DNA from: a virus
DNA length: 39,784 bases
Strand: one strand, 5' to 3'
Virus record (IMG/VR): IMGVR_UViG_3300045988_082269
Coordinates: 1-39,784 of that record
The notes below the pieces were generated by a model. The model did no database searches, was not told the origin of the DNA, and saw only the letters and a program-made list of their open reading frames with translations. This document shows, one piece after another, positions 3,278-39,784 of the stretch (position 1 is the first letter of the stretch; every line of letters begins with the position of its first letter). The translations under genes were made by a program, and so were the position numbers.

Positions 3278-3596
3278 GTTCTCTCAGCTCCTTCTGTCTG
3301 CGTTCAAATTCTACCTGTTGGCCGTAGGTGCGGCCGGCAGCAATGGCGCGGGCGCACACGCTGTTAATGGTGTTTTCCGCTGCCGGTTTCGCTTTGCGTT
3401 TCGGCGCGGGAGGCATCCATTCTTTCCAGTCCTCGTCATCAGATGGGGTGCTCCGGAGATAGGCCTGCCGCCGGAGGTGGTTCTCCACGTCCTTGTGCTT
3501 GCGGCAGGGCGTGCAGTATAAGCGCGTCGCGCCGACATTCTCCATCACCTTGCCGCAGATCGCACAGCGGCGGGTAAAGCTTGTCCGATCGCTCAT
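3261..3596 (-). CDS. Zinc-ribbon protein, 111 aa
   Basis: ORF trimmed to ATG 3594-3596. CAICG...CTPCRKH four-Cys motif. ATGA overlap with the upstream gene. Confidence 0.6.
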   Translation of the reverse strand: MSDRTSFTRRCAICGKVMENVGATRLYCTPCRKHKDVENHLRRQAYLRSTPSDDEDWKEWMPPAPKRKAKPAAENTINSVCARAIAAGRTYGQQVEFERRQKELRERGEID

Positions 3597-6727: not shown

Positions 6728-6746
6728 GGTGTCCACTGTGGACACC
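6728..6746. repeat. 19-bp perfect palindrome GGTGTCCACTGTGGACACC, copy 1 of 3
   Basis: Read directly, 6 nt after the stop of 5835..6722. Confidence 0.95.
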
Positions 6747-6764
6747 TGAAATTTCAAAAAGCAT

Positions 6765-6791
6765 CCCCCGCCGCCGGAGAGACGACGGGGG
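6765..6791 (-). terminator. Intrinsic terminator of the minus-strand small-gene operon
   Basis: Stem CCCCCGCCG/CGACGGGGG (one mismatch), followed on the minus strand by ATGCTTTTTGAAATTT. Confidence 0.55.
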
Positions 6792-6858
6792 AAGTTATTA
6801 TTCTGGTAGGCCAAAAATCAAGCCCAAAAGGACAATCGGCCATGGATTCTGAGCTTTT

Positions 6859-9569: not shown

Positions 9570-10214
9570 TCAGTCTGCGTCCGCGATGCACTCCCAATAG
9601 ACAGCTGCCTTGCCGTCCACCGCGTCTTGGTCGCGCAAAAATGCGGCAGTCATATCGGCGTAAAAATTGGGATTGTCCACGCTGTAAGACTTGGCGACCT
9701 TGCTGTAATCGCTGTACATCATGTTGAGCACCGCCCAAAAATCGTCCTTGTTGCAGTCAAGGCCGCGCTGAGTCATAAGCTGGACGGCCTGCTCATACGG
9801 CCAATGTGCACCGGTTGTGCCGTCGGCGTTGACCATTTTTTCTGTCCACTCCTTGGCCTCATCGTGGGTCAAGTGCTGTCTGGGCATTTTGACCGTCCGG
9901 CTGGATGCGCCGCCGTGGTCGTACTGGCCGCGGGTGTGTTCCCAGTCGTCTCCCTGCGCAAAACCGATGCGAGGCATACGGCGGTCATAGTTATCCGCGT
10001 CCGGATAGCGGGGCATGGGGTCAGGGTCAATATACCGGTTGTTTTCCCGGATTTCCCACGAGCGGCGAGGCTCCCGTTCGCCCTCTTCCAGCCGACGCAG
10101 ACGACGTTCGAGGTCGCGCTCTTTGCGCTCGCGCTCAACCTCGGCCGGATCATATTTCGGGGTGTTGCTGTGGTCTCGCAGCATCATCATACGGCGAAAA
10201 TTAGTCTTGCCCAT
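9570..10214 (-). CDS. Cargo-operon protein 5: highly charged R/E-rich N-terminus plus globular C-terminal domain, 214 aa
   Basis: RBS GAGGAGG. 13-nt gap to the upstream gene. No motif recognised. Confidence 0.7.
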   Translation of the reverse strand: MGKTNFRRMMMLRDHSNTPKYDPAEVERERKERDLERRLRRLEEGEREPRRSWEIRENNRYIDPDPMPRYPDADNYDRRMPRIGFAQGDDWEHTRGQYDHGGASSRTVKMPRQHLTHDEAKEWTEKMVNADGTTGAHWPYEQAVQLMTQRGLDCNKDDFWAVLNMMYSDYSKVAKSYSVDNPNFYADMTAAFLRDQDAVDGKAAVYWECIADAD

Positions 10215-10227
10215 AATCTACACCTCC

Positions 10228-10599
10228 TCAAGAAATGGACGCAGGCGCACCAGCGTGGGAACGGCAGAAGCAGCCAAGATACTTGAACGTGCCGGTGCCG
10301 GTCGCAGACGTTGCCACACGGGTAGCATAGCGGGTGCGGGCGTGGATGCTCTCAGCGGTTGCCTGAGCGCAGTTGCAGTCTGTCAGAGGGTATGTGGTCG
10401 TACCTGCGCCGATGGTAATAACCACAGGGGCGTTGATGGTGGTCGTGTCCGGGATGCTCTGGGCAACCACGATGCAATACTTCTCTCCGTTCTGGTATGC
10501 GCCAGCAGGGATGTTGATGGTCAGCGTGTCATTGGCGAACGTGACCGCCTGACTGACGACCAAGTGCGGGCAGAGTTTGCAGCTTGTTTTGCAAGCCAT
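10228..10599 (-). CDS. Cargo-operon protein 4: small Cys-bracketed beta-rich protein, 123 aa
   Basis: RBS AGGAGG. N-terminal CKTSCKLC, internal CNC and C-terminal GCFC. Loosely reminiscent of CotY/CotZ/ExsY-type Cys-rich spore-surface proteins. Confidence 0.7.
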   Translation of the reverse strand: MACKTSCKLCPHLVVSQAVTFANDTLTINIPAGAYQNGEKYCIVVAQSIPDTTTINAPVVITIGAGTTTYPLTDCNCAQATAESIHARTRYATRVATSATGTGTFKYLGCFCRSHAGAPASIS

Positions 10600-10613
10600 A
10601 ATGTTTTCCTCCT

Positions 10614-10649
10614 AAAAAATCAGGGGCAGAGGTGTCTTACCCCTGCCCC
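10614..10649 (-). terminator. Strong intrinsic terminator between cargo genes 3 and 4
   Basis: Minus strand reads GGGGCAGGGGT-AAGAC-ACCTCTGCCCC, then TGATTTTTT. The next RBS follows immediately. Confidence 0.7.
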
Positions 10650-10684
10650 GATGGTTCACCCGGTGTTATCGGGGAGTGTGTTGG

Positions 10685-11554
10685 TTAGCAGCCGCAGCAG
10701 TTCACGCCCACGTTGGGGTTTGCCACCTGATAAGCGGGAATCGGACGAGGATTGACCCGGTTCAGGATGGTGTCGGTCTGCTGGGACATCACGGTGGTCA
10801 GAAGCGCATTCTGCCGATCCTGAGAAGCGGCGAACTTCAGGCTCTGGTTCTCAGCGGTCAGAGTTGCGATCTTGTCCTGCGTGAAGTAGTCCATCATGCT
10901 GCGGAAGTTGGCGTTGCAGTTGTCCACGATGGCGCGGGCGTTGTCTGCGATAGCCTGACGGGTAGCACAGTCCTCCGTTGCGATGGTATACTTCAGGTCG
11001 CCGATCAGCTGCTTGTTCTCGCAGCAGCAAGATGCAAGCTGCGTGGCAAGTGCGGTCTGCCCAGCCTGCCGTGCGTTGCCTTCCTGCATGATGGCAAGGC
11101 TGATGGCATTGTCGCCGTTGGACACGCTGCGTTCCAGACCGTTCACAAGCTGTGCGTTCTGGTAGCCAAGCTGACAGATGGCCTGATTGGTGCCAGCAAA
11201 TCCGCCAGCAATAGCGGCGTTGAGGGTGTTCATCTGTGCGAGTTGGTCATAGCCCAGAGAGCAGATACCGCTCTGGATGCCTGCCAGAGAGCGGGAGGTA
11301 TCCTGCTGGTAGAAGCCTTCAGACAGAGCTGCGCGGGTGTCTGCACCGCCCTGACCAGTTGCGCCAGTGCCGACCAGATAGGGGATGTAGCTGTTCATGC
11401 CGTTGTCACCACCGTTCCGGCCATAGCCGTTTGTACCCCAGCCGAAGATGATAGCGAGGATGATGACAGCCCACAGACCTTCGTTGCCGAAGAATCCGCC
11501 GTTGTTGTTGCCGCCGTCCTGCCCAGCCAGATAGCCAGTTGCAAAATCGTCCAT
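10685..11554 (-). CDS. Cargo-operon protein 3: Gly/Asn-rich N-terminus, single TM helix, long Cys-punctuated helical ectodomain ending in NCCGC, 289 aa
   Basis: ORF trimmed to ATG 11552-11554, after GAAAGGAG. TM segment LWAVIILAIIFGW. Cys motifs ICSLGY, ICQLGY, SCCCEN and a terminal CCGC. Confidence 0.7.
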   Translation of the reverse strand: MDDFATGYLAGQDGGNNNGGFFGNEGLWAVIILAIIFGWGTNGYGRNGGDNGMNSYIPYLVGTGATGQGGADTRAALSEGFYQQDTSRSLAGIQSGICSLGYDQLAQMNTLNAAIAGGFAGTNQAICQLGYQNAQLVNGLERSVSNGDNAISLAIMQEGNARQAGQTALATQLASCCCENKQLIGDLKYTIATEDCATRQAIADNARAIVDNCNANFRSMMDYFTQDKIATLTAENQSLKFAASQDRQNALLTTVMSQQTDTILNRVNPRPIPAYQVANPNVGVNCCGC

Positions 11555-11675
11555 AACAAAACTCCTTTCAGTTTTGCGTATGCTATCCCACCGCCGTATG
11601 CGATGGGCGAAGCCAAACAAAAGCGGTTTTTGTCAAGTCCGCAAAACTGAGAAGCGTTTCGCTTAGAGGGATGTG

Positions 11676-11927
11676 TTATCGGGGCAGCGTCAGATTCAGG
11701 ACGCTTGCCAGCTGGTTCAGGTCGATGCCACGCTCTTTGGCAAGGTTCTGCGCCATCGTTCGGAGCTGTGCTTCGTTCTTGCCTTGAATCAGGTTCAAGC
11801 CCTGCATGATAGGAGCATTCTGCCCGCTCAACTGCTGGATAAGCCCCATCGGGTTTTGTCCAGCGCGAGCCAGATTTGCAAGCTGCATGATGGGGCTGTG
11901 AGTAATCATATCAAACGGAGAGGGCAT
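11676..11927 (-). CDS. Cargo-operon protein 2: small Q/L-rich protein with repeated PIMQ motif, 83 aa
   Basis: RBS AAGGAG. 3-nt gap to the upstream gene. Confidence 0.65.
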   Translation of the reverse strand: MPSPFDMITHSPIMQLANLARAGQNPMGLIQQLSGQNAPIMQGLNLIQGKNEAQLRTMAQNLAKERGIDLNQLASVLNLTLPR

Positions 11928-11930
11928 CGC

Positions 11931-12449
11931 TTATTCTCCTTTCTTCGCTGCGGCAGTGGGCTTAGAAAAGCTCTTCTGCCACTTTTCCAGCTCATCCAGC
12001 CTGTGGACGAGAGTGCTATACTCCTCAGTAGGCACATACCGCTGTGTCGGTGCAGCGGTCTTTTGTGCCTGCTGCGCCTGCATCTGCTGCCATGCTTCCG
12101 GGCTGTAAAACTCCTGCACATAGGATTCACAGGTGTCCGGGTTGAGCCGCTTGCAGTAGATCACGCCGCTGCGCAAGTCTGGGCAGTAGGTCGGTCTGCC
12201 GTACAGATCAGACGGTATTGCCAAAAACTCCTCCTTGCTGGACACAGGTCTGCCAAGCAGCCAGCCGCCGTCCTGTGCCGACTGCTGAACAGGCTGTTGC
12301 CCATTCATCGGCTGCGGACGCTGCGGTTGTGCCTGCTGCATCTGCGTACTCGGTAGGGGAGCGGCAAGACCTACCGTTCCCATGCCGCCGTAAGGATTGA
12401 CAGGCTGTTGCGGAACGTAGGGCGTTCCGGGTGTCGGATAATAGCTCAT
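11931..12449 (-). CDS. Cargo-operon protein 1: Pro/Gln-rich N-terminus plus Cys-containing C-terminal domain, 172 aa
   Basis: ORF trimmed to ATG 12447-12449, after AAGGAGGG. Confidence 0.65.
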   Translation of the reverse strand: MSYYPTPGTPYVPQQPVNPYGGMGTVGLAAPLPSTQMQQAQPQRPQPMNGQQPVQQSAQDGGWLLGRPVSSKEEFLAIPSDLYGRPTYCPDLRSGVIYCKRLNPDTCESYVQEFYSPEAWQQMQAQQAQKTAAPTQRYVPTEEYSTLVHRLDELEKWQKSFSKPTAAAKKGE

Positions 12450-15409: not shown

Positions 15410-16072
15410 TCACCCCTCCCGGAGCATGTCCAGCCCCTTTTTTGCGATAATGGCGGCGTAGTCCTTGTAGGCGTGGGAAAGGTCTGCGTTGCCCGTGATG
15501 CCCGGCACGCTGGCGGTGCTGGTATACTGCCACATCCCAAAAGGCCATGCCGGGGTCGGCTTGTCGTCGTGGTATGCAGCCACCCACACGTCGTACTTGC
15601 GCAGTGCAGCCCCGCCCATGTACAGCCGGGTCTCCCCGAAGTTGAGACCTGTGTAGAGCAGGGCATAGAAGCCCCACTGCTCGATGGTCGCCAGCGCATA
15701 CGCGGTCAGGTCGGTCAGTGCCTGCTTTCTGAGCTTCTTGAGCTTGTTGTCCTCCACATCCACGCAGACCGGCAGCTCGAAGGTTTTCCCGGTCAGCGCA
15801 GTTTTGAGCAGAGCCAGCTCTGCGTCGGCACTGGTATGCGAGACGGCGTAGGTGTAGTAGTACACGCCCACCGGGATCCCCAGCCGCTTGCACTCGGCAT
15901 AGTTGCGCTCAAACGTCGGGTCGATGTACAGCCCGTCCTTGCGCTTGCTCAGCTTGCTGTTGGTGGATACCGTCTTGAGCATCACACCGTCAATCTTTCT
16001 GCTGGCCTTGACCGCATCCCAGTTGATATCGCCCTGCCAGCGGGAAACGTCTAATATGGTTTTTGCCATCAT
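15410..16072 (-). CDS. Endolysin, glycoside hydrolase family 25 muramidase, 220 aa
   Basis: DVSRWQGDINW, GVYYYTYA and VCVDVED motifs typical of GH25. No separate wall-binding domain is evident. Confidence 0.85.
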   Translation of the reverse strand: MMAKTILDVSRWQGDINWDAVKASRKIDGVMLKTVSTNSKLSKRKDGLYIDPTFERNYAECKRLGIPVGVYYYTYAVSHTSADAELALLKTALTGKTFELPVCVDVEDNKLKKLRKQALTDLTAYALATIEQWGFYALLYTGLNFGETRLYMGGAALRKYDVWVAAYHDDKPTPAWPFGMWQYTSTASVPGITGNADLSHAYKDYAAIIAKKGLDMLREG

Positions 16073-16111
16073 GTCACGTCCTTTCTGTTAGTGAGATAAG
16101 GCTTCCTTTAG

Positions 16112-18793
16112 TTAATAGGCAAATTCTCTATTTTCGCCTGCTCCAATGCGTACAATTTTTACTTTTCTTTCTTTTTTATTGATGCAAAAAATGTCAAAGC
16201 ACTGTTCGCTTGTAGTCCCAAGCGTTCTCGTCTGTGCGCCTTCTTCTCGGATAAAGCAGTCGGCGTTAGTCACAACCATGTGTGTGCCATGCCACTCAAT
16301 AAGTGCATCTCTGTGCGTATGTCCAGCAAGCCAACACACAAGTGTGCCTTTGTGTGCAGAGAATTCTTCCGTTTTTGACGTGTATCCGCTTATGACTTTC
16401 CCAATTTTTTCAGCATTTACAACCAGTGTACTTGTCCCAAAAGGCCGTTCTGAAGATGTCCATAGTGGCACATGAGAGAAGACAACGCATAGCCAATCAT
16501 TGGAGGGAAGATTTAAAGAGCTTTTGAGCCATGCAATTTGTTCTTCGCTTATGGAAAAATACCACTCTTTATTATATTTGGATATATCCAAGCCGTCAGC
16601 ATAGTCCATACAGTTCACGGAAATGTAACGGATTTTATTGGTTTTATCGTCGGAATAAAAATACGTTCCATTTCCGTTTTCAGGATACACAATTTCCGAT
16701 TTTGCCTTTTCTTCATCAGAGCGATAATACAAATTGTACGCTTCATCGGTGGAGATATTGTATTGATTTTTTCCACCATATGCCCATTCATGATTTCCTA
16801 TAGTCTTTAGCATTGGCACGTCAAAGAACAAATCGCGAAGCTCTATCATGTCATCAACAATAGCGTTTTTGCCTTTCTCGTCTGAATTCCATGCAGTCTG
16901 CCAATCTCCTCCTCCAAGAATGGTTTTTATCGCACACGATGTTTTAATTCGTCTCATAAGAGCAGGCGAATGTTTTGTGTTCCGCTGAATGTGAATGTCT
17001 GTGATAAATGCAAATGCAAAGCTGTTAAAGCTAGCAATATTTTCAAGAACTTCTTTTTCTTTCTGAGACATATAATCTCTATAATAATCGGGTATATGAA
17101 AACGATTATTAACCACATAAACATGGAGATATTTATGCACTTGGCCCGCAGATATAGGGGAATTATCTTTGTTCCGAATTAAAATCGTATAATATCTCTC
17201 TGGATACACATTGCAATAAAATGTTCCATCAAGCCATACGCCAATGTTTGCTGCGAAGTCTTTATACATATATCTCTTAGAGTAAGTGCCATCTTCTAGT
17301 ATAAATTCTTCGACTTCTACGTCAATTGTGTCTGGAGAGGAAATCATAATAGTTTCTTTTTGCGGAGGGCTGAACAAACTTGTAACAACTCGAATGTCTG
17401 ACGGCGTAAAAGGGATAGTAATATTTGTTGCTTGATTATAAGTAAACGTATTTGTTATATCAGCACAATACGGTTTAGCAACAACGTCATGCGATTTTTT
17501 GCTCAAGGCAGCCATTACAATATCTTCGCCAGTTGGAACATCTTCAAAATCGGTATTGCTATCATTTTGTATGGATAACCAAAGCCCAGTATCTTCCTTA
17601 CGGATCATTACTTCTTTAGTCCATACGTCTTTGTATGAAATATTAAATTTTCCTACGCATTTGATTTTGATGTCACAATTTGATTTTGGGCAGTATAGTG
17701 CCGCTCTTTTTGTGGTATTTGGGACGTAAGCTGAATCCAATTTTTTATTATTGACTGTACCTTTTAGGATAATTATTGGATATACGTCAACATCCTCTCC
17801 GTTATCAGAGGTATACAATGGGGCTCCTTGAATTTCATCAGCAGATATACACGCGCTAATCAACAGTTCATTCTGGCCTGGAGTTAAATAACCCGTTGAG
17901 ATTGCGATGTATTTTGCATTTTCTGGCTTGATGACATACATCTTAGATTTGATGACGTTGTTTGAAGAACTGTTTTTCACATATCCAACAGTTTTCATGC
18001 TTTCATCAAGGAACGTCACAAAATTCGTATATGCAGGAGAAGACGCTGTTACAATATATCTGTTTGTATTATATGGAGACAAATCGAAATACCATGTATA
18101 ATAGGCCGTTTGAGAAAAGTCTCTGTCCAAATAATAACTGCCTTGTACAACTTTTTGTGCACCTAAATTAACCAGATTCCTTTTTGCATTGCTAACTAAA
18201 TCTTCCTTTATCTCCCCAACCGCATCCCCCGTCGCTTTCGCATCCGCTGCCTTGCCTTCCAGCTTGAGGGTTGGATCTGTGACAAACTTCGCCGCTGCAT
18301 CCTCCGCCCGTTTCTGGGCGTCCTGACAGGCGGTGACGTAGGCCGTCCACTGATCCGACGTGAGGCCGGTGACGTAGAAAAACGACCGCACAGACACGGG
18401 GTCAACGTAGGGCGCACCGGTGACGCGGCAGATGATCGGAAAGGTATTGAGCTTGTACCCAGTGTTGTTGACCACGCAGAGGGAGACCGCCACCTTGCCG
18501 TTGACGCGCAAAGCCTGCTCTGCAAGCTCGAGGGTGACGACGTTGGGGCTGCTGCTGGACACCACGACGGCCTTGCGGGTTCCGCTGGACAGCTGGATGG
18601 TGTCATACCAGCCGGTGTTGTTGGCACCTTGGCCGTGATACTCCACGGTATAGACCGCGCCGCTGGGCGCGGAGTACGGCACGCCGCCGTCGTAGAGCGT
18701 GAGGCCAATAAACCGGCTCTGGGAGTCGGACTGCATGACGTCGATCACCTGCGGCAGACCCGGGTTATTGAAATCAATTGTGATATTGTGCAT
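16112..18793 (-). CDS. Receptor-binding/baseplate protein: BppU-like N-terminus, AT-rich central region, C-terminal metallophosphoesterase domain, 893 aa
   Basis: ATG 18791-18793 follows AAAGGAGG. N-terminal ITIDFNNPG...DSQSRFIGLTLYDGG. C-terminal motifs ITDIH, GGGDW, GNHEW, SHVP and GHTHRD (about 17020..16112). Confidence 0.8.
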   Translation of the reverse strand: MHNITIDFNNPGLPQVIDVMQSDSQSRFIGLTLYDGGVPYSAPSGAVYTVEYHGQGANNTGWYDTIQLSSGTRKAVVVSSSSPNVVTLELAEQALRVNGKVAVSLCVVNNTGYKLNTFPIICRVTGAPYVDPVSVRSFFYVTGLTSDQWTAYVTACQDAQKRAEDAAAKFVTDPTLKLEGKAADAKATGDAVGEIKEDLVSNAKRNLVNLGAQKVVQGSYYLDRDFSQTAYYTWYFDLSPYNTNRYIVTASSPAYTNFVTFLDESMKTVGYVKNSSSNNVIKSKMYVIKPENAKYIAISTGYLTPGQNELLISACISADEIQGAPLYTSDNGEDVDVYPIIILKGTVNNKKLDSAYVPNTTKRAALYCPKSNCDIKIKCVGKFNISYKDVWTKEVMIRKEDTGLWLSIQNDSNTDFEDVPTGEDIVMAALSKKSHDVVAKPYCADITNTFTYNQATNITIPFTPSDIRVVTSLFSPPQKETIMISSPDTIDVEVEEFILEDGTYSKRYMYKDFAANIGVWLDGTFYCNVYPERYYTILIRNKDNSPISAGQVHKYLHVYVVNNRFHIPDYYRDYMSQKEKEVLENIASFNSFAFAFITDIHIQRNTKHSPALMRRIKTSCAIKTILGGGDWQTAWNSDEKGKNAIVDDMIELRDLFFDVPMLKTIGNHEWAYGGKNQYNISTDEAYNLYYRSDEEKAKSEIVYPENGNGTYFYSDDKTNKIRYISVNCMDYADGLDISKYNKEWYFSISEEQIAWLKSSLNLPSNDWLCVVFSHVPLWTSSERPFGTSTLVVNAEKIGKVISGYTSKTEEFSAHKGTLVCWLAGHTHRDALIEWHGTHMVVTNADCFIREEGAQTRTLGTTSEQCFDIFCINKKERKVKIVRIGAGENREFAY

Positions 18794-25390: not shown

Positions 25391-25417
25391 GGGAGGTGTC
25401 CACTGTGGACACCTCCC
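25391..25417 (-). terminator. Hairpin/terminator containing palindrome copy 2 (core 25395..25413)
   Basis: GGGAGGTGTCCA-CTG-TGGACACCTCCC, a 12-bp stem, followed on the minus strand by TCATTTTTT. Starts 6 nt after the stop of 25423..25944. Confidence 0.7.
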
Positions 25418-33019: not shown

Positions 33020-33070
33020 ACAACAAAAACCTCCCCGATGCACATCACACATCGAGGAGGTTCAAATAAA

Positions 33071-33319: not shown

Positions 33320-33339
33320 TGATTGCACTCCTTTCTTGA

Positions 33340-33358
33340 GGTGTCCACTGTGGACACC
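33340..33358. repeat. 19-bp perfect palindrome GGTGTCCACTGTGGACACC, copy 3 of 3
   Basis: Read directly. The T7 run lies on the plus strand, not on the gene strand. Confidence 0.95.
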
Positions 33359-33546
33359 CGCCGGGGATTTTTTTGTGGTTTCGGGTGCGCCGCTGGATTT
33401 TGGAGCGGACGGCGCAATATCCATTGAGCACGGTGGAAATTTCAAAATGCCGTGCTATGCTTCCCGCCGGGATGTCTCACCACAATGATGACGGTTCATT
33501 GGCTACTCCCAATGTCCGTATTATGATTATAGCACATCAAAAATGC

Positions 33547-33609
33547 GCAATCCGGGCAAATCGTGCATTTCGGTCATTTTGTGCGTTTTGCTGCAATCCG
33601 TGCATTTCG
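33547..33609. repeat. Imperfect direct repeats GCAATCCG...CGTGCATTTCG
   Basis: 33547-33572 (with a 7-nt insert) and 33593-33609, in an AT-rich non-coding stretch. Confidence 0.7.
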
Positions 33610-33715
33610 TGTACGGGAATTACGATGTTACGAGGAACACACTTTTGAAAGTATGACTTATTCGAGCCGATTTTACCTATTTCCCTTGAATACTTTGAAA
33701 AATGTTTTAGATTTT

Positions 33716-35316: not shown

Positions 35317-36453
35317 TTATTGCAAGTCAAGATAATTTGCCAGACTTATCAATGCGTCGTTATATAGTTCCCATCCGATCGTCTTGAACATTCCGTCGTT
35401 CAGGATGATCGCGTACCGCTCGTGTTCGCCCGGTGCAAGGCCGTAAGCATCCCGCTGCGTGTCACACAATTTCCACAGATATGCCCCGCCGGGAAGGGAA
35501 TGCTTGTAAAAATCCAGCTGTAACGTCCACAGATTCCTCTCAAACTCCCAGACGGCGTTCTTGCTCAGCTCTTTTTCGGCCAGTTTAAGCAGGGTACTGT
35601 ACCCACGTTTTTCTGGTTCAGCCGGTACGGTTTCCATGACCTCGTTCGGACTGTCATGGGTTTCTGTGGCTTTCGCTGGCATTCTATGGGCTTCTGCGGC
35701 TTCCCGATGGGCTCTTTCCACCATCTCGATAGCTTCCGGTGGAAGGTTCCACTCTGCATAATCCGGGTTCTGCGGTAACGTTTTCGGCGGTTCGTTTTTT
35801 GGAGGTTCCGGCTGCTTTGCTTTTCGTTGGGTTTCGGCTACGCTCTGGGCGTACCGGTAAGCTTCCATCAAGCCGATTTCGCCCCGGTGCAATTTGCCCT
35901 TGATATCCTCGGTGCAGTTGGCGGAAATTGCATTCAGCCGGGCAAGGGTTCCGCTTCCTTCGCCCAGAATCTTGCACAAGGCGTCTCTGACTTTGCCCTC
36001 CAGCTGTCCGGCCTGCTTTTTTGCGGTCAGTGCATCTTTCAGGGCTTCATACTGCGCCAGACGTTCGCCGTCGGTCAGCTCCCGCGCTGTTGCGTTGGCC
36101 GTAATCAAAGCGATTCGGTCATCCAGCTCGCCCTTGCTCTCGAGGATGATGCAGGGCAGGGAGGAAAACCGGTCATCACCATTGTCCAGCAGCTCTTGGC
36201 ACGCCGTCAACCGACGCTCGCCGCCGATCAGCTTGTACGTCATGCCGCCCGTTTGCACAACTTCCAACGGTTGGCGCACGCCATTTTTCCGGATATCCTC
36301 GGCCAGCTGGGAAACATCGCCTACATGGTAGATTTTGTTATCTGGATTCGGGATGATCCAGTCGATCGGCAGCATCTCCACCTGCATCGGCACCCCCGCC
36401 GGGTCAGAGCCTTGCGTATTCAGCAGGCCACTCAGTAATCCTACGCTGCTCAT
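35317..36453 (-). CDS. parB: ParB/Srx-domain protein with an unknown C-terminal domain, 378 aa
   Basis: ORF trimmed to ATG 36451-36453. ParB N-terminal box IGGERRLTA. ATGA coupling to the upstream gene. Confidence 0.8.
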   Translation of the reverse strand: MSSVGLLSGLLNTQGSDPAGVPMQVEMLPIDWIIPNPDNKIYHVGDVSQLAEDIRKNGVRQPLEVVQTGGMTYKLIGGERRLTACQELLDNGDDRFSSLPCIILESKGELDDRIALITANATARELTDGERLAQYEALKDALTAKKQAGQLEGKVRDALCKILGEGSGTLARLNAISANCTEDIKGKLHRGEIGLMEAYRYAQSVAETQRKAKQPEPPKNEPPKTLPQNPDYAEWNLPPEAIEMVERAHREAAEAHRMPAKATETHDSPNEVMETVPAEPEKRGYSTLLKLAEKELSKNAVWEFERNLWTLQLDFYKHSLPGGAYLWKLCDTQRDAYGLAPGEHERYAIILNDGMFKTIGWELYNDALISLANYLDLQ

Positions 36454-36473
36454 TTTTGTTCTCCTTTCGGCGG
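36449..36473. repeat. 25-bp junction repeat CTCATTTTTGTTCTCCTTTCGGCGG, copy 1 (identical to 36977..37001)
   Basis: Read directly. Spans the DUF551 C-terminus (PPKGEQK), its stop and the parB start. Confidence 0.95.
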
Positions 36474-36917
36474 TAAAGGCATCCATCCCACCACAGGACA
36501 GTCTATCTTGTTGTTGTAAACATCGTCCGGGTTGAAGTGGCGGTATTCCCACCATCCTTCCGGGATTCGGTAGTCATCCCGTTCCTCGTCGTATGTTCCC
36601 CAATCGGGGAGATCTTCCCAATTCCATTCGCTGTCCTCGGAGAAAACATTTCCGTCCTCGTAGTGCGCCGTTGTAATGCCCAGATAGTCATCACGCCGGT
36701 ACAAAACCAGCACTTCGGTTTCGACCTTCGGAGGATTTTTGTTGGGGTCGTTCCACAGTGGTATTATTTTTTCTGAATCAATAATTGGCAGTTTTTTCAG
36801 TTCGTCAATTTCGATTTCAACAGACTCTTCGCAAGTAAGAACTTCCGTAGTGTCTCTGAGAGATTTCAGCTCTTCCTTGAGTTGTTTCAGAACAGGCTCA
36901 ATATCGACCAGTCTCAT
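36450..36917 (-). CDS. DUF551-like protein, paralog 2 (cassette B), 155 aa
   Basis: ATG 36915-36917 lies 8 nt after GGAGGG. C-terminal VVGWMPLPPKGEQK. Confidence 0.7.
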   Translation of the reverse strand: MRLVDIEPVLKQLKEELKSLRDTTEVLTCEESVEIEIDELKKLPIIDSEKIIPLWNDPNKNPPKVETEVLVLYRRDDYLGITTAHYEDGNVFSEDSEWNWEDLPDWGTYDEERDDYRIPEGWWEYRHFNPDDVYNNKIDCPVVGWMPLPPKGEQK

Positions 36918-36975
36918 TTCATTCACCCTCCGCAATTTTTTTGACCGCCGCGGCCAGCTGCTTATACTGTGCGCT
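36895..36975. repeat. 81-bp junction repeat, copy A (78/81 identical to 37375..37455)
   Basis: Contains a relic of the parA 3' end, its stop, the RBS and the first 8 codons of the DUF551 gene. Confidence 0.95.
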
Positions 36976-36981
36976 ACTCAT
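36919..36981 (-). pseudogene. Chimeric 20-codon mini-ORF MSSAQYKQLAAAVKKIAEGE (parB start fused to parA C-terminal tail)
   Basis: Its ATG overlaps the stop of 36978..37397 exactly as the parB ATG does at 36450-36453. The last 18 codons match the parA C-terminus. Confidence 0.6.
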
Positions 36982-37001
36982 TTTTGTTCTCCTTTCGGCG
37001 G
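36977..37001. repeat. 25-bp junction repeat, copy 2
   Basis: Identical to 36449..36473. Confidence 0.95.
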
Positions 37002-37397
37002 TTCTGAAATCCACATCCAATGGGTAACGTCATCCAACGGAATGCACTCTCTGCTTTCCATCCAGTCTGGTTTTCTTTCTTCTCCGCAAGAGCTTTGCCA
37101 AAAAGCAATCAATCGGTCTCCGTCCGCACACGCTACCAATACGTCCTCTGATTCTGGCGGAAGTGCATCTTCCACCCTAGTCCATAATTTTTTTGTAATG
37201 TCTTCTGTTTTGACCAAAGGAGCTTTTTCAAGGCTATTTGCAAGTCCGTTCAAAAAGTCGGACAGTCCTTCCTTGATTACAGCCTTGTCTTGGCATTCTT
37301 TTGTTTTTATTTTTCTCAAATTTTCGGCAGATTTTTTGATGTTCTCAACGGAAGATTTCCATCCGGCGACAATAGGCTCAATATCGACCAACTTCAT
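36978..37397 (-). CDS. DUF551-like protein, paralog 3 (cassette A), 139 aa
   Basis: ATG 37395-37397 lies 1 nt after the parA stop. C-terminal THWMWISEPPKGEQK. Confidence 0.7.
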   Translation of the reverse strand: MKLVDIEPIVAGWKSSVENIKKSAENLRKIKTKECQDKAVIKEGLSDFLNGLANSLEKAPLVKTEDITKKLWTRVEDALPPESEDVLVACADGDRLIAFWQSSCGEERKPDWMESRECIPLDDVTHWMWISEPPKGEQK

Positions 37398-37455
37398 TTC
37401 ATTCACCCTCCGCAATTTTTTTGACCGCCGCGGCCAGCTGCTTATACTGTGCGCT
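37375..37455. repeat. 81-bp junction repeat, copy B (the authentic parA 3' end)
   Basis: Offset is exactly 480 nt from copy A. Confidence 0.95.
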
Positions 37456-38193
37456 CGACGGAATGTTGGGCGTGTGCCGGTGCAGCGGCTTATGCGCTGC
37501 CTTGGCTTCCTTGACCTTGACGCTGTAGTTGATCCGCATCACGCTGCCATCCTCGTTCCGGAAAGCCGGAATGGGAAGATTTGCGATCTGATTGACGGTC
37601 TGCATTGAGTACCGCCCCCGGTCATACTTGGTGGCAAGCACGCCCATGACCTCAAGCTGCGAGTTGTACCCGTGCTGGACGTCTCGCACCTGATCCATGA
37701 TCTCGGCCAGACCGTCTAACGCCCATTCGTCGCAGTCCACCGGGATGATGACCCAATCGGCAGCGACCAGAGCGTTGATGGTCGCCATGTCGATATCGGG
37801 TGGGCAATCGAAAATGCAGTAGTCATACTCGCTGCGGAGCGGCTCAAGGGCATTTTTCAGCCGGTCGGCCTGCGGGCGGCGGACGTCGAACATGACGTTT
37901 TTGTTTGCCAGAAGCATGGTCATGTTGCTGGGCGCAATGTCCACGCCGGGGAAATCGGTGTGCCGGATCACGTCGGGCAGCTTGACCCGGAGTTCCAGCA
38001 CGTCGCCCATCGTGTCCGTCGTATCCGAAAACCGGTTGAAAAACTTGGTGCTGTTGGCCTGCTTGTCCAGATCCATGACCAGCACCCGCCGGGAATGCAA
38101 TTCGGCGAGGATGCAGGCCAGATTGCAGGCGGTGACGGACTTGCCGACGCCGCCCTTGAGGTTGATGATTGCGATCTTGTTCATGTTGACCAT
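37399..38193 (-). CDS. parA: ParA/Soj-family partition ATPase, 264 aa
   Basis: ORF trimmed to ATG 38191-38193, after AAGGAGG. Deviant Walker A box KGGVGKS. Confidence 0.85.
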   Translation of the reverse strand: MVNMNKIAIINLKGGVGKSVTACNLACILAELHSRRVLVMDLDKQANSTKFFNRFSDTTDTMGDVLELRVKLPDVIRHTDFPGVDIAPSNMTMLLANKNVMFDVRRPQADRLKNALEPLRSEYDYCIFDCPPDIDMATINALVAADWVIIPVDCDEWALDGLAEIMDQVRDVQHGYNSQLEVMGVLATKYDRGRYSMQTVNQIANLPIPAFRNEDGSVMRINYSVKVKEAKAAHKPLHRHTPNIPSSAQYKQLAAAVKKIAEGE

Positions 38194-38396: not shown

Positions 38397-39321
38397 CCGC
38401 TGTACCCGCTTTCCCGATCCTTCGCAGCGACTGCGACAAAAGCACTTTCTGCGGGATGTCCGGTGCAGGGGACTGTGCCGGCCGGTTGGCAACGGTGGCG
38501 TTTCCCTGTGCCTGATAGTAATGCTCCATGGTGATCGGCGCGTTGAGGATGGTGGTTCTCAAGTATGCCTTGATGTTTTTCACTGGGTTCTTCGTGCTGG
38601 ACAGTGCGTCCATGATGTACTCAATGTGCTGGCTTGTCAGCATATCCAGACGCTTCCGGATGCTGGCGGTCAGCTGGGGATACTGCCCGATGGTCTGTGT
38701 CGGCAGCGGGCAGTTGTACATCTCCACGATGTTGTTCAGGATCTCATCCAGCATCTCCGGGTCGTACCTTGCGGCCAGCGTATCCAGTTCCAGTCGGTTG
38801 CGGAAATGATCCAGAGATTCCTGCCAGTCGGATGTTGTTCCATCCATCCTCTGGCCGTCGGCCTGATAGATAGATTTCCCTATAGATTTCTCTATATATT
38901 TCTTCCGTGAAATTTTTTCACGGGTCTGAGGGAAATTTTTTCCCGGGTCTGGTGACGTTTTTTTCACCGGTGAAGTTTTTTCACCGGTGAAGTTTTTTCC
39001 CGGGTCTGCGTCTCCCAGCGTCATAGTTTCAACGCCCGGAACGGTCCGGTAAACGTTACGCTCAACGCCTCCCTCCATCTCCTTGCGCATCTCCACAACG
39101 CCCATACTGACCAGCTCCGCAAGAAAGTCCTTGACCGAACGCTGTGTTACGCCAAGCCAATCGGCAATATAGAGTGATCCGCCCCGATACCAGCTTTCGC
39201 CGTCCTGCGAAAATCCATAGATCACAGCAAGTGCCATCGCCTTTGCAGGCTTGAGCTTGAGATTGTCTATCATCCAGCGTTGGATGACGACATACTGGCT
39301 CTTCTTCTTTTTTTCCTTCAT
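38389..39321 (-). CDS. Putative replication initiator/replisome organiser with N-terminal winged-helix domain, 310 aa
   Basis: ORF trimmed to ATG 39319-39321. Position is next to ssb. Iteron array lies inside the coding region. Confidence 0.6.
   Translation of the reverse strand: MKEKKKKSQYVVIQRWMIDNLKLKPAKAMALAVIYGFSQDGESWYRGGSLYIADWLGVTQRSVKDFLAELVSMGVVEMRKEMEGGVERNVYRTVPGVETMTLGDADPGKNFTGEKTSPVKKTSPDPGKNFPQTREKISRKKYIEKSIGKSIYQADGQRMDGTTSDWQESLDHFRNRLELDTLAARYDPEMLDEILNNIVEMYNCPLPTQTIGQYPQLTASIRKRLDMLTSQHIEYIMDALSSTKNPVKNIKAYLRTTILNAPITMEHYYQAQGNATVANRPAQSPAPDIPQKVLLSQSLRRIGKAGTADG
38871..38902. repeat. AT-rich TA(G/T)ATTTC x3 repeats adjacent to the iterons (possible unwinding element)
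   Basis: TAGATTTC at 38871 and 38883, TATATTTC at 38895, with 12-nt spacing. Confidence 0.6.
38909..39008. repeat. Five iterons, G(A)A(A/G/C)(T/G)TTTTT(T)C(A/C)C(G/C)GGT(CTG/GA): candidate origin of replication
   Basis: Copies at 38909-38928, 38932-38951, 38954-38973, 38972-38990 and 38989-39008. They encode the repeats DPGKNF and (E/K)KTSP. Confidence 0.7.
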
Positions 39322-39345: not shown

Positions 39346-39771
39346 TTAAAACGGCAGGTCTTCGTCGTCGCTTATAACGGCAAAATCATCGTTGCTGCCC
39401 TGTGCGTAAGCTGGGGCAGGCTCCCGGTAATCCTTGGGCGGTGCTTCACCGCCGTCATCGACCTTCTCGGCCTTTTTCGCCCCGGCAAAGCTGATATTAT
39501 CGGCCAGCACTTCCACCGCCGTCCGCTTGCTGCCGCTCTTGTCCTGATAATTCCGGGTCTGCAAACTGCCGGAAACGGCAATCAGACTGCCCTTGCGGAA
39601 GTACTTGCAGACAAAATCCGCTTGATGACGCCATGCCACGACGTCGATGAAATCCGCCTGCCGTTCCTGCCCCTGCGGAGCATAATTCCGATCGCAGGCG
39701 ATCCGGAAGCTGCACACGGTATTTCCGTTCTGGGTGGTGCGCAGCTCCGGATCAGCGATAAGACGCCCCAT
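39346..39771 (-). CDS. ssb: Single-stranded DNA-binding protein, 141 aa
   Basis: OB-fold N-terminus (GRLIADPELRTTQNGNTVCSFRIA) and acidic C-terminal tip DDEDLPF. Confidence 0.9.
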   Translation of the reverse strand: MGRLIADPELRTTQNGNTVCSFRIACDRNYAPQGQERQADFIDVVAWRHQADFVCKYFRKGSLIAVSGSLQTRNYQDKSGSKRTAVEVLADNISFAGAKKAEKVDDGGEAPPKDYREPAPAYAQGSNDDFAVISDDEDLPF

Positions 39772-39784
39772 GATCGCTACTACA
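39666..39784. repeat. Terminal direct repeat, copy 2 (identical to 1..119)
   Basis: Base-by-base identity read between the two window ends. Confidence 0.95.

What the first reader, a model, noticed from the sequence alone, without database searches (positions are those of the whole stretch)
6728..6746. Identical 19-bp perfect palindrome GGTGTCCACTGTGGACACC at three distant intergenic sites
Exact copies occur at 6728..6746 (6 nt after the secreted-protein gene), 25395..25413 and 33340..33358. The second copy lies between the neck gene and the major tail gene and is extended to a 12-bp stem. The third lies 21 nt upstream of the first RBS after the early/late gap, ahead of tRNA-Met, HNH and the terminase genes. 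Only the 25395 copy has a T-run on the transcribed (minus) strand, as a terminator should. The 33340 copy has its T7 run on the opposite strand, and the 6728 copy has none. A shared terminator role therefore does not explain 19/19 identity at all three sites. Alternatives are the binding site of a dimeric phage regulator, an RNA stem-loop recognised by an antiterminator or processing enzyme, or a small mobile palindromic element. Two of the three copies sit immediately upstream of late-gene RBSs.
Basis: seen in the sequence. Interest (0 to 1): 0.65.

Follow-up and report, generated by a model that had tools for sequence, protein, structure and literature searches.

The report
Dispersed ParB binding sites in phage
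The three identical palindromes are most likely docking sites (parS-type centromere sites) for the phage's own ParB-like partition protein, and at least one also folds into a transcription-terminator hairpin; this is a new example of a known kind of system, not a new kind of element.

Summary
GGTGTCCACTGTGGACACC occurs exactly three times (0.01 expected), always between genes. Only copy 2 is a textbook intrinsic terminator (12-bp stem plus U-tract on the transcribed strand).

The 7-8-bp arms GTGTCCA(C)/(G)TGGACAC are frozen across more than 100 related human-gut phages that are only about 70% identical in DNA. This holds in samples chosen without reference to the motif. The central 1-3 nt, the stem extensions and a neighbouring RNA helix all drift. 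Structure alone therefore cannot explain the identity, so something reads the sequence.

The phage encodes ParA (g59) and a ParB/Noc-family protein (g56) with a GERR box and a near-invariant helix-turn-helix. No clustered parS lies beside them.

Distant homologues of this ParB (25-40% identity) sit near the same kind of palindrome, GTG(T/C)CC-N5-GG(A/G)CAC. They occur in unrelated phages, in Clostridium phage Saumur, in C. perfringens pCP13 (two perfect copies flanking parB at 25% GC) and in P. sordellii pCS1. No other protein is shared by these loci, and control loci lack the motif.

Best reading (about 0.6): these are dispersed ParB-binding sites, as in phage-plasmid N15, that double as RNA hairpins. 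Binding has not been tested.

The parts
6728..6746 (.). Palindrome copy 1, between convergent genes g18 (secreted protein, +) and g19 (-). As RNA on the + strand it forms a 10-bp hairpin without a U-tract.
   Evidence: The position is conserved: 22 of 23 g18-like genes (29-49% aa identity) in relatives have the palindrome downstream, 19 of them within 20-300 nt.
25391..25417 (-). Palindrome copy 2 (core 25395-25413), extended to a 12-bp stem and followed by UCAUUUUUU. It is an intrinsic terminator or attenuator between the Neck1-like g43 and the major tail gene g42.
   Evidence: -24.2 kcal/mol. All 17 loci whose major tail protein is at least 68% identical carry the same core at this position, with covarying stem extensions.
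33340..33358 (.). Palindrome copy 3, in the roughly 200-nt leader of the late operon. It lies 8 nt upstream of the RBS of the first late ORF and has no U-tract on the transcribed strand.
   Evidence: Anchoring on the neighbouring leader element P2 gives perfect arms in 56 of 64 leaders. In 53 of 54 family loci a copy lies 0.8-4.1 kb downstream of the parB-like gene.
35317..36453 (-). g56, a ParB/Noc-family protein. It has a ParB N-terminal domain with a GGERRLTA box and a helix-turn-helix region. It is the proposed reader of the palindrome.
   Evidence: Pfam PF02195. It aligns to Spo0J 1vz0 and Noc 7nfu over residues 24-172. Residues about 111-175 are nearly invariant across the family, while the rest is about 50% identical.
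37399..38193 (-). g59, a ParA-type Walker ATPase and the partner of g56.
   Evidence: Pfam AAA_31, CbiA, MipZ and ParA. It lies directly upstream of the ParB-like gene in distant phages and plasmids.

Best explanation
The 17-19-bp inverted repeat GTGTCCAC-N-GTGGACAC is the cognate DNA site of the phage's ParB-like protein g56. It is a parS-type site, comparable to N15 IR and KorB OB sites, and it is present at three dispersed intergenic positions.

Inferred mechanism: a g56 dimer reads the two half-sites with its helix-turn-helix. By analogy with other ParB proteins it probably loads as a clamp and spreads from the site. Together with the ParA ATPase g59 it would then position or partition extrachromosomal copies of the phage genome. 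It may also dampen transcription through the late leader and the head-tail junction.

The site is a GC-rich perfect palindrome in transcribed DNA, so it also folds as an RNA hairpin. Where a stem extension and a U-tract have been added (copy 2 here; copies 1 and 3 in many relatives) it works as an intrinsic terminator.

Protein recognition explains the frozen sequence. Dual use explains the terminator look.

What is shown: sequence conservation, co-occurrence with ParB-like genes, and the hairpin/terminator anatomy. What is inferred: binding, partition and any effect on transcription.
For: (1) Sequence-specific constraint.
- Samples chosen without reference to the motif have perfect arms: major-tail anchor 17/17; leader P2 anchor 56/64; g18-like anchor 22/23; parB anchor 53/54.
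- These phages share only about 70% nucleotide identity with the window.
- Variants fall on the central 3 nt and the outermost pair. Stem extensions covary.
- In the same leader alignment, helix P1 has 5 pairs with double compensatory changes, while the palindrome's arms are almost invariant (one substitution, U to C, among 12 sequences).
- The site also occurs in frame inside an endolysin gene, coding VSTVDT, and in leaders without U-tracts.

(2) A reader is present.
- g56 is a ParB/Noc-family protein with a GERR box and an HTH. Its HTH segment is nearly invariant. ParA g59 accompanies it.
- No clustered repeats lie in the parA-parB region. The repeats at 38909-39011 lie inside the initiator-like gene g61 and look like origin iterons.

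(3) Co-occurrence across deep divergence. ParB-like homologues of 25-40% identity lie near perfect palindromes GTG(T/C)CC-N5-GG(A/G)CAC:
- L432: GTGTCCAACTTGGACAC.
- L433 and L434: GTGCCCAANTTGGGCAC, one copy in the parA-parB gap.
- Six low-GC phage loci: GTGTCCGAATCGGACAC.
- Phage Saumur: a near-copy (one mismatch) in the parA-parB gap.
- pCP13: two exact GTGTCCCCGGGGGACAC copies flanking parB-PCP03. A pCP13-like plasmid has one in the parA-parB gap.
- P. sordellii pCS1-5: two copies flanking parAB.
- Shuffles expect 0-0.01 per locus.
- Controls: 212 kb of distant major-tail loci have none. A 57-kb phage family without this ParB has the motif only inside a lysin gene.
- ParA and ParB are the only window proteins detectably shared with those loci.

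(4) Precedent. N15 has four dispersed sites, GTGCGACC-NN-GGTCGCAC, with a variable centre (PMC7205306).
Against: - No binding experiment exists. All the evidence is association, and the loci were fetched through ParB homology.
- The phage also has a tyrosine integrase, and relatives occur integrated in chromosomes, so the need for partition is unclear.
- One family locus, L385, has the ParB-like gene but no ParA and no palindrome in 21 kb.
- The window's own recognition-helix region differs from the family consensus at about 5 residues, yet the site is unchanged.
- Many copies carry covarying stem extensions and U-tracts, which shows selection at the RNA level as well.
- The inner arm bases stay complementary within each lineage. 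This fits a hairpin as well as a symmetric dimer.
- A published but untested 'putative parS' of pCP13-type plasmids lies elsewhere, in 117 bp between parB and PCP03 (PMC4459074).
- Two phages that lack this ParB carry the site inside their lysin gene.
Confidence: 0.6

Rival explanations
1. The copies are plain intrinsic terminators or RNA-stability hairpins. Only the structure matters, and the identity reflects common descent or copying.
For: Copy 2 is a canonical terminator. About 33 of 76 distinct contexts in relatives have a U-tract on at least one side, and the stem extensions covary. More distant phages have unrelated terminator hairpins at the same neck/tail position.
Against: Copies 1 and 3 lack a U-tract on the transcribed strand. 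The arms stay invariant at about 70% genome identity, while a structure-only helix in the same leader covaries. The site also occurs inside a coding region. The same outer hexamers recur beside ParB homologues in 25%-GC plasmids. Other strong terminators in the window use unrelated stems.
Confidence: 0.1
2. The element is an RNA hairpin recognised by a phage RNA-binding protein, such as an antiterminator, a processing enzyme or a translational repressor. It acts in the late leader and before the major tail gene.
For: Two copies sit just upstream of strong ribosome-binding sites. The leader is a conserved structured RNA with helices P0-P3. Being palindromic, the element gives the same stem whichever strand is transcribed.
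Against: The loop (the central 1-3 nt) is the variable part, whereas RNA-binding proteins usually read loops and bulges. No candidate RNA-binding protein is shared with the distant lineages and plasmids that carry the motif. In pCP13 and pCS1 the sites flank parAB rather than late genes.
Confidence: 0.1
3. The element is a recombination linker or mobile cassette boundary, like the PeSL elements of T4-type phages. Identical short sequences at module junctions would promote modular exchange.
For: Sequence similarity breaks next to the palindrome in several comparisons. Examples are different upstream genes in L248 and L251 versus L241, different first late genes after the leader copy, and variable N-terminal parts of the lysin. 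PeSLs are conserved promoter-terminator motifs implicated in shuffling (PMC4122927; PMC2839356).
Against: Mosaic breaks are expected at any gene boundary. No promoter is attached to the hairpin, which PeSLs require. Seventeen base pairs is short for homologous exchange. This model does not explain the association with ParB-like genes in plasmids and unrelated phages.
Confidence: 0.1
4. The element is the operator of another phage regulator (an immunity repressor acting as a roadblock, or the late activator), or a host REP-like element.
For: The site is palindromic, so it suits a dimeric HTH protein. The phage has Xre-type HTH proteins g21 and g28 and a PHROG-36 regulator g55.
Against: g21 and g28 are poorly conserved (about 50% identity, or found in few loci), while the site is invariant. 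g53-g55 have no detectable homologues in the distant motif-bearing loci. Isolated half-sites are not enriched. In the genome scan only one phage-like MAG contig had several T/A-centred copies in homologous contexts; the rest were scattered hits, mostly in high-GC genomes. About 15 kb of host flank beside integrated relatives holds none. A second phage family that shares a 92-98% identical gene cassette does not use the motif in its intergenic regions.
Confidence: 0.1

Closest known systems
Dispersed SopB centromere sites IR1-IR4 of the phage-plasmid N15
   Same: Both have several identical palindromes with 8-bp arms and a variable centre, scattered over a temperate phage genome that encodes a ParA/ParB pair. 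N15 has GTGCGACC-NN-GGTCGCAC (PMC7205306); this phage has GTGTCCAC-N-GTGGACAC. From my own recollection of Ravin, Rech and Lane 2008, which I did not read here, some N15 sites lie near late-control elements and the Sop system aids late gene expression.
   Different: The ParB clade differs (ParB/Noc-like rather than SopB). The centre has 1 nt rather than 2. The phage also carries an integrase and has integrated relatives. Some sites are built into terminator hairpins. Binding is untested here.
KorB and its OB operators on plasmid RK2 (established knowledge, not read here)
   Same: KorB is a ParB-family protein that binds an odd-length palindrome with a free central base (TTTAGCSGCTAAA). Its sites are dispersed over the replicon, at promoters and far from them. 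It serves in both partition and transcriptional silencing.
   Different: There is no sequence relation of site or protein beyond the ParB fold. No KorA-like partner was identified. Repression is only a possibility here.
parAB region of the pCP13 / pBCNF5603 family of Clostridium perfringens
   Same: The ParB is homologous (34% identity over residues 3-210), ParA is adjacent, and the GTGTCC...GGACAC palindrome is of the same type. pCP13 has two exact copies.
   Different: It is a plasmid, not a phage. The sites flank parB rather than being spread over 40 kb. The literature proposes a different, untested 117-bp parS (PMC4459074).
PeSL promoter-terminator cassettes of T4-type phages
   Same: Both are conserved stem-loops at gene boundaries in mosaic regions, and both may favour modular exchange (PMC4122927).
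   Different: PeSLs are composites with an early promoter. Their stems are short and vary in sequence between phages. They have no link to a DNA-binding protein.
Stoperators of cluster A mycobacteriophages (own knowledge)
   Same: Both are many copies of one short site in intergenic regions of the lytic genes, read by a phage protein.
   Different: Stoperators are asymmetric 13-mers, depend on orientation, and are bound by the immunity repressor. This site is symmetric, and the immunity-type HTH proteins here are not conserved.

Membership tests
ParABS partition system (ParB-CTPase type) | ParB N-terminal domain with the arginine patch GxxRxxA | tested here: met
   PF02195 matches residues 24-116. 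GGERRLTA aligns with the GERR of Spo0J and H. pylori ParB. R80 and R81 are invariant in alignments A1 and A2.
ParABS partition system (ParB-CTPase type) | Central helix-turn-helix DNA-binding domain | tested here: met
   The alignment to Spo0J 1vz0 and Noc 7nfu runs through the HTH region (query 25-171). The GK/RVRD..ILG.S.G..ARLNAI segment is conserved. This rests on sequence only.
ParABS partition system (ParB-CTPase type) | Partner Walker-type ParA ATPase in the same locus | tested here: met
   g59 matches AAA_31, CbiA, MipZ and ParA. In distant relatives ParA lies directly upstream of ParB.
ParABS partition system (ParB-CTPase type) | A cis-acting palindromic site specifically bound by the ParB | tested here: inconclusive
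   Motif and ParB clade co-occur strongly across about 8 lineages, with controls. Binding itself cannot be tested with these tools.
ParABS partition system (ParB-CTPase type) | The replicon is maintained extrachromosomally and needs partition | tested here: inconclusive
   The contig is circular or terminally redundant and has an initiator-like gene with iterons. It also has an integrase, and relatives are integrated in chromosomes.
ParABS partition system (ParB-CTPase type) | CTP binding, clamp loading at parS and spreading | not testable with these tools
   This needs biochemistry or ChIP-seq.
Intrinsic (Rho-independent) terminator | GC-rich stem followed directly by a U-tract on the transcribed strand | tested here: met
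   Met for copy 2 only: a 12-bp stem, then UCAUUUUUU. Not met for copies 1 and 3.
REP/BIME-type host repeat | Tens to hundreds of copies in the host chromosome | tested here: inconclusive
Among 120 stretches only a phage-like MAG contig had several relevant copies. Host flanks of about 15 kb had none.
PeSL cassette | A stem-loop fused to a conserved early promoter | tested here: not met
   No conserved promoter adjoins the three copies. The flanks differ between the sites.
N15-type dispersed centromere | Several identical inverted repeats with a variable centre, dispersed over the phage genome | tested here: met
   There are three copies, at 6.7, 25.4 and 33.3 kb. The centre is C, A, T or G in relatives. 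Relatives average 3.6 copies per 40 kb.
N15-type dispersed centromere | The sites and the Par proteins influence late gene expression | not testable with these tools
   Only position is suggestive: the late leader and the head-tail junction.

The most novel reading that the evidence does not exclude
The ParB-like protein and its palindromes form a KorB-like switch built into transcription signals. ParB bound or clamped at the late leader, at the head-tail terminator and at the moron boundary would silence or gate late transcription in the lysogen. It could do this as a roadblock, or by preventing or favouring formation of the terminator hairpin. The same sites would also partition the excised or replicating genome. 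On this reading the system couples segregation and late-gene control in integrative gut phages.
Probability: 0.2. Interest if true: 0.7.

Novelty: new member of a known kind. Interest (0 to 1): 0.5.

Why it matters
If correct, this work gives a concrete, testable centromere-site consensus, GTG(T/C)CC-N5-GG(A/G)CAC. The consensus would apply to a ParB clade spread through Clostridia. That clade includes a large family of uncultured human-gut temperate phages, Clostridium phage Saumur, the pCP13 family of C. perfringens, and the pCS1 plasmids of P. sordellii that carry the lethal toxin TcsL.

None of the 17-mers searched appears in the searchable literature. The only published proposal for pCP13-type plasmids places parS elsewhere, without a binding test.

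The finding also shows how a protein-binding palindrome can be mistaken for a terminator, or co-opted as one. And it raises the question of why integrative phages keep a ParAB system with sites placed at late-operon control points.

Tried and rejected
- Near-identity search against cultured phages found nothing. The terminase large subunit matches only uncultured faecal phages at 67-71%.
- Rfam found only the tRNA.
- The genome-collection scan with a free central base was swamped by scattered, mostly single hits, chiefly in high-GC genomes.
- cos-site idea: locus ends near the leader do not coincide, and extra copies elsewhere argue against it.
- The idea that the TTCACCGGTGAA repeats at 38.9-39.0 kb are the parS was dropped. 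They lie inside the initiator-like gene g61 and look like origin iterons.
- The idea that the late activator's upstream repeats (TGTCC units in relatives) and the palindrome share one reader was dropped. The window's repeats are TGCAC-type, yet its palindrome is unchanged.
- Isolated half-sites are not enriched.
- g55, g54, g53, g57, g58 and g60 were considered as alternative readers. None has a detectable homologue next to distant ParB-like genes.
- A single-protein locus search with g56 gave only 2 loci. The alignment-based search was needed.
- The L435/L436 near-matches lie in a coding repeat inside the ParB-like gene and were not counted as support.

Full report
**1. Observation**

GGTGTCCACTGTGGACACC occurs exactly at 6728, 25395 and 33340. 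No other match exists with up to 3 mismatches, and shuffles give 0.01. The element is a 9+1+9 inverted repeat around an unpaired centre.

The window is a complete circular or terminally redundant genome of about 39,665 bp: bases 1-119 equal 39666-39784. It carries one tRNA-Met.

**2. Anatomy of the three sites**

The gene map comes from my own heuristic caller, checked against Pfam and PHROGs.

- Copy 1 starts 5 nt after the stop of a signal-peptide gene (g18, +), which converges on g19 (-). As RNA it forms a 10-bp hairpin with no U-tract. A separate hairpin at 6764-6792 is the minus-strand terminator.
- Copy 2 lies between a Neck1/tail-completion gene (g43) and the major tail gene (g42). It extends to a 12-bp stem (-24.2 kcal/mol), followed by UCAUUUUUU and then AAGGAGG-ATG. 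It is a canonical terminator or attenuator.
- Copy 3 lies in the roughly 200-nt late leader. That leader runs downstream of an extended -10 element (TGcTATAAT, 33534-33526) preceded by 9-nt periodic repeats. The palindrome is 8 nt before the GGAG of a small conserved ORF, which is followed by a strong hairpin, tRNA-Met, HNH, terS and terL. It has no U-tract on the transcribed strand.
- Other strong terminators in the window use unrelated stems.

**3. The arms are frozen across a diverged phage family**

Of the 119, 111 share roughly 70% nucleotide identity with the window. No cultured relative exists. The window matches a human-gut metagenome scaffold.

Exact-match sampling is biased, so I re-sampled using anchors that do not depend on the motif:

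| Anchor | Result |
|---|---|
| Major tail protein, at least 68% identical | 17 of 17 carry the core upstream. The centre is C, A or T. Stem extensions covary (ggga/tccc, agaa/ttct, ggaa/ttcc). |
| Major tail protein, at most 47% identical | Unrelated hairpins, or none, at that position. |
| Invariant leader element P2 | 56 of 64 have perfect 7-bp arms. Six share a one-base arm variant (GTGCCCA), one has two changes, one is a recombinant. |
| g18-like genes, only 29-49% identical | 22 of 23 have the palindrome downstream, 19 of them within 20-300 nt. |
| parB-like gene | 53 of 54 have a copy 0.8-4.1 kb downstream (median 2.1 kb). The density is 3.6 copies per 40 kb. |

Variants fall on the three central bases and the outermost pair.

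An internal control comes from a 12-sequence leader alignment. Helix P1 has five pairs with double compensatory changes, while the palindrome's arms are almost invariant, with a single U-to-C substitution.

In relatives the site also lies in frame inside a signal-peptide GH25 endolysin, where it codes VSTVDT. It also lies between HNH and terS. Of 76 distinct contexts, about 33 have a U-tract on at least one side and 43 have none.

Conclusion: many copies are real terminators, but structure alone does not explain the invariant sequence.

**4. What reads the sequence**

The phage encodes ParA (g59) and a ParB/Noc-family protein (g56). g56 has a PF02195 domain and a GGERRLTA box, and it aligns to Spo0J and Noc through the helix-turn-helix.

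All 34 family loci that reach at least 3 kb upstream of the leader have g55 and g56. Within the family, g56 residues about 111-175 (the HTH region) are nearly invariant, while the rest is about 50% identical.

The parA-parB region holds no clustered repeats. The repeats at 38909-39011 lie inside the initiator-like gene g61 and look like origin iterons.

The decisive comparison used an alignment of ParB-like proteins to fetch distant homologues. These loci share no alignable DNA with the window. ParA and ParB are the only window proteins they have in common. Each carries a perfect palindrome of the same build:

| Lineage | Palindrome and position |
|---|---|
| L432 | GTGTCCAA-C-TTGGACAC, in a leader after a TGGTATAAT promoter |
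| L433, L434 | GTGCCCAA-N-TTGGGCAC, once in the parA-parB gap just before the parB RBS and once 3.3 kb downstream |
| Six low-GC phage loci | GTGTCCGA-A-TCGGACAC |
| Clostridium phage Saumur | A near-copy (one mismatch) in the parA-parB gap |
| pCP13-like plasmid (25% GC) | GTGTCCCC-G-GGGGACAC in the parA-parB gap |
| pCP13 itself | Two exact copies: one in the parA-parB gap, one 7 nt after the PCP03 homologue |
| P. sordellii pCS1-5 | The same 17-mer 93 nt upstream of parA, plus GTGCCCCTCGGGGGCAC after the operon |
| Clostridioides plasmid | A copy with 7 of 8 arm pairs |

Shuffles expect 0-0.01 per locus.

Controls:
- 212 kb of distant major-tail loci have no such palindrome.
- A 57-kb Rep3/ParA/NikA phage family shares a 92-98% identical cassette with the window, so it is probably from a similar host. 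It has the motif only inside the lysin gene, in 2 of 7 loci.
- Isolated half-sites are not enriched in the window.

**5. Mechanism**

Most likely (about 0.6), the palindrome is the cognate ParB-binding site. A g56 dimer would read the two GTGTCCAC half-sites. By analogy with other ParB proteins it would nucleate a partition complex that ParA g59 acts on. It may also affect transcription where it sits: the late leader, the head-tail junction and the moron boundary.

Because the site is a GC-rich palindrome in transcribed DNA, it also forms an RNA hairpin. Selection has added stem extensions and U-tracts at sites where a terminator is useful.

- Shown: conservation, co-occurrence, and the terminator anatomy of copy 2.
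- Inferred: binding, partition and any regulatory effect.

**6. Caveats**

- No binding data exist.
- The phage has an integrase, and relatives are integrated in chromosomes.
- L385 has the ParB-like gene but neither ParA nor the motif.
- The window's recognition-helix region differs from the family consensus at about 5 residues.
- The inner arm bases stay complementary within each lineage. This fits a hairpin as well as a symmetric dimer.
- The pBCNF5603/pCP13 paper proposes a different, untested parS (PMC4459074).

**7. Comparison with known systems**

The closest precedent is the phage-plasmid N15, which has four dispersed SopB sites, GTGCGACC-NN-GGTCGCAC (PMC7205306). KorB of RK2 is also close: a ParB-family protein with dispersed odd-length palindromes and a role in silencing (own knowledge). 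PeSL cassettes (PMC4122927, PMC2839356) resemble the mosaic-junction aspect, but they require a fused promoter, which is absent here.

None of the 17-mers searched appears in the searchable literature.

**8. Verdict**

The element is a new member of a known kind, the ParB-parS system with dispersed sites. It has the added twist of dual use as terminator hairpins. Interest is moderate.

Noticed in passing
window 33320-33620 (minus strand): The late-operon control region has several parts. There are 9-nt periodic direct repeats (WWTGCACGR, about 33612-33541) upstream of an extended -10 element, TGcTATAAT (33534-33526). Then comes a roughly 200-nt leader. Its helices P0 and P1 covary among relatives. 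Element P2 (GCGCCG..CGGCGC, 33415-33387) is invariant, and the motif CCCGGCGGG occurs twice. In relatives the upstream repeat unit is TGTCC/TGTCAC instead. This looks like an activator-dependent late promoter followed by a conserved structured leader RNA with no Rfam match.
   Followed up: partly
window 33027-33063 (minus strand): A 17-pair hairpin followed by a U-rich run lies between the small leader ORF (33319-33071) and tRNA-Met. It may be a tR'-like terminator that late transcription must read through.
   Followed up: no
window 38909-39011: Iteron-like repeats (GACCCGGGAAAAAAYTTCACCGGTGAAAAAA, including the palindrome TTCACCGGTGAA) lie inside the initiator-like gene g61 (DUF6017). This is probably the replication origin.
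   Followed up: partly
window 36450-37455: Two paralogous small genes, g57 and g58 (g58 matches DUF551), sit between parA and the parB-like gene. They share an 85-nt repeat at 95% identity (36891-36975 and 37371-37455). In distant relatives parA and parB are adjacent.
   Followed up: no
window 9570-12449: The cassette g23-g27 has no known function. Four of its five proteins (g24-g27) are 92-98% identical between otherwise different phage families. The exact g26 protein is indexed in 2565 blocks of the public collection, including 57-kb Rep3/ParA/NikA elements and integrated prophages. It looks like a highly mobile accessory module.
   Followed up: partly
L021 8570-9364; L116 6766-7572; L358 about 7071: In relatives the palindrome lies in frame in a signal-peptide GH25 endolysin, coding VSTVDT between the signal peptide and the catalytic domain. 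This includes phages that lack the ParB-like gene.
   Followed up: partly
window 16000-18000: GC content falls to 36-41% inside the 893-aa tail or receptor-binding candidate g35, against about 55% elsewhere. This suggests a recently acquired host-range module.
   Followed up: no
L449 (pCP13) 1701-1717 and 3516-3532: Two exact copies of GTGTCCCCGGGGGACAC flank parB-PCP03 on the 25%-GC plasmid pCP13. The published putative parS is a different 117-bp stretch between parB and PCP03.
   Followed up: partly
L426 3289-9819: A different hairpin, CCTCCCCTTGCCAGGGGAGG, occurs 7 times (plus one variant) in a 10-kb viral contig of 62% GC. It is an unrelated multi-copy palindrome family.
   Followed up: no
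L362 and L363 (ENA scaffold YUJU15-1 scaffold_32): Two copies of the g26 module lie 39.8 kb apart on one 206-kb bacterial scaffold. One copy abuts host genes and the other abuts an integrase. This is consistent with a tandem or double prophage of this family.
   Followed up: no
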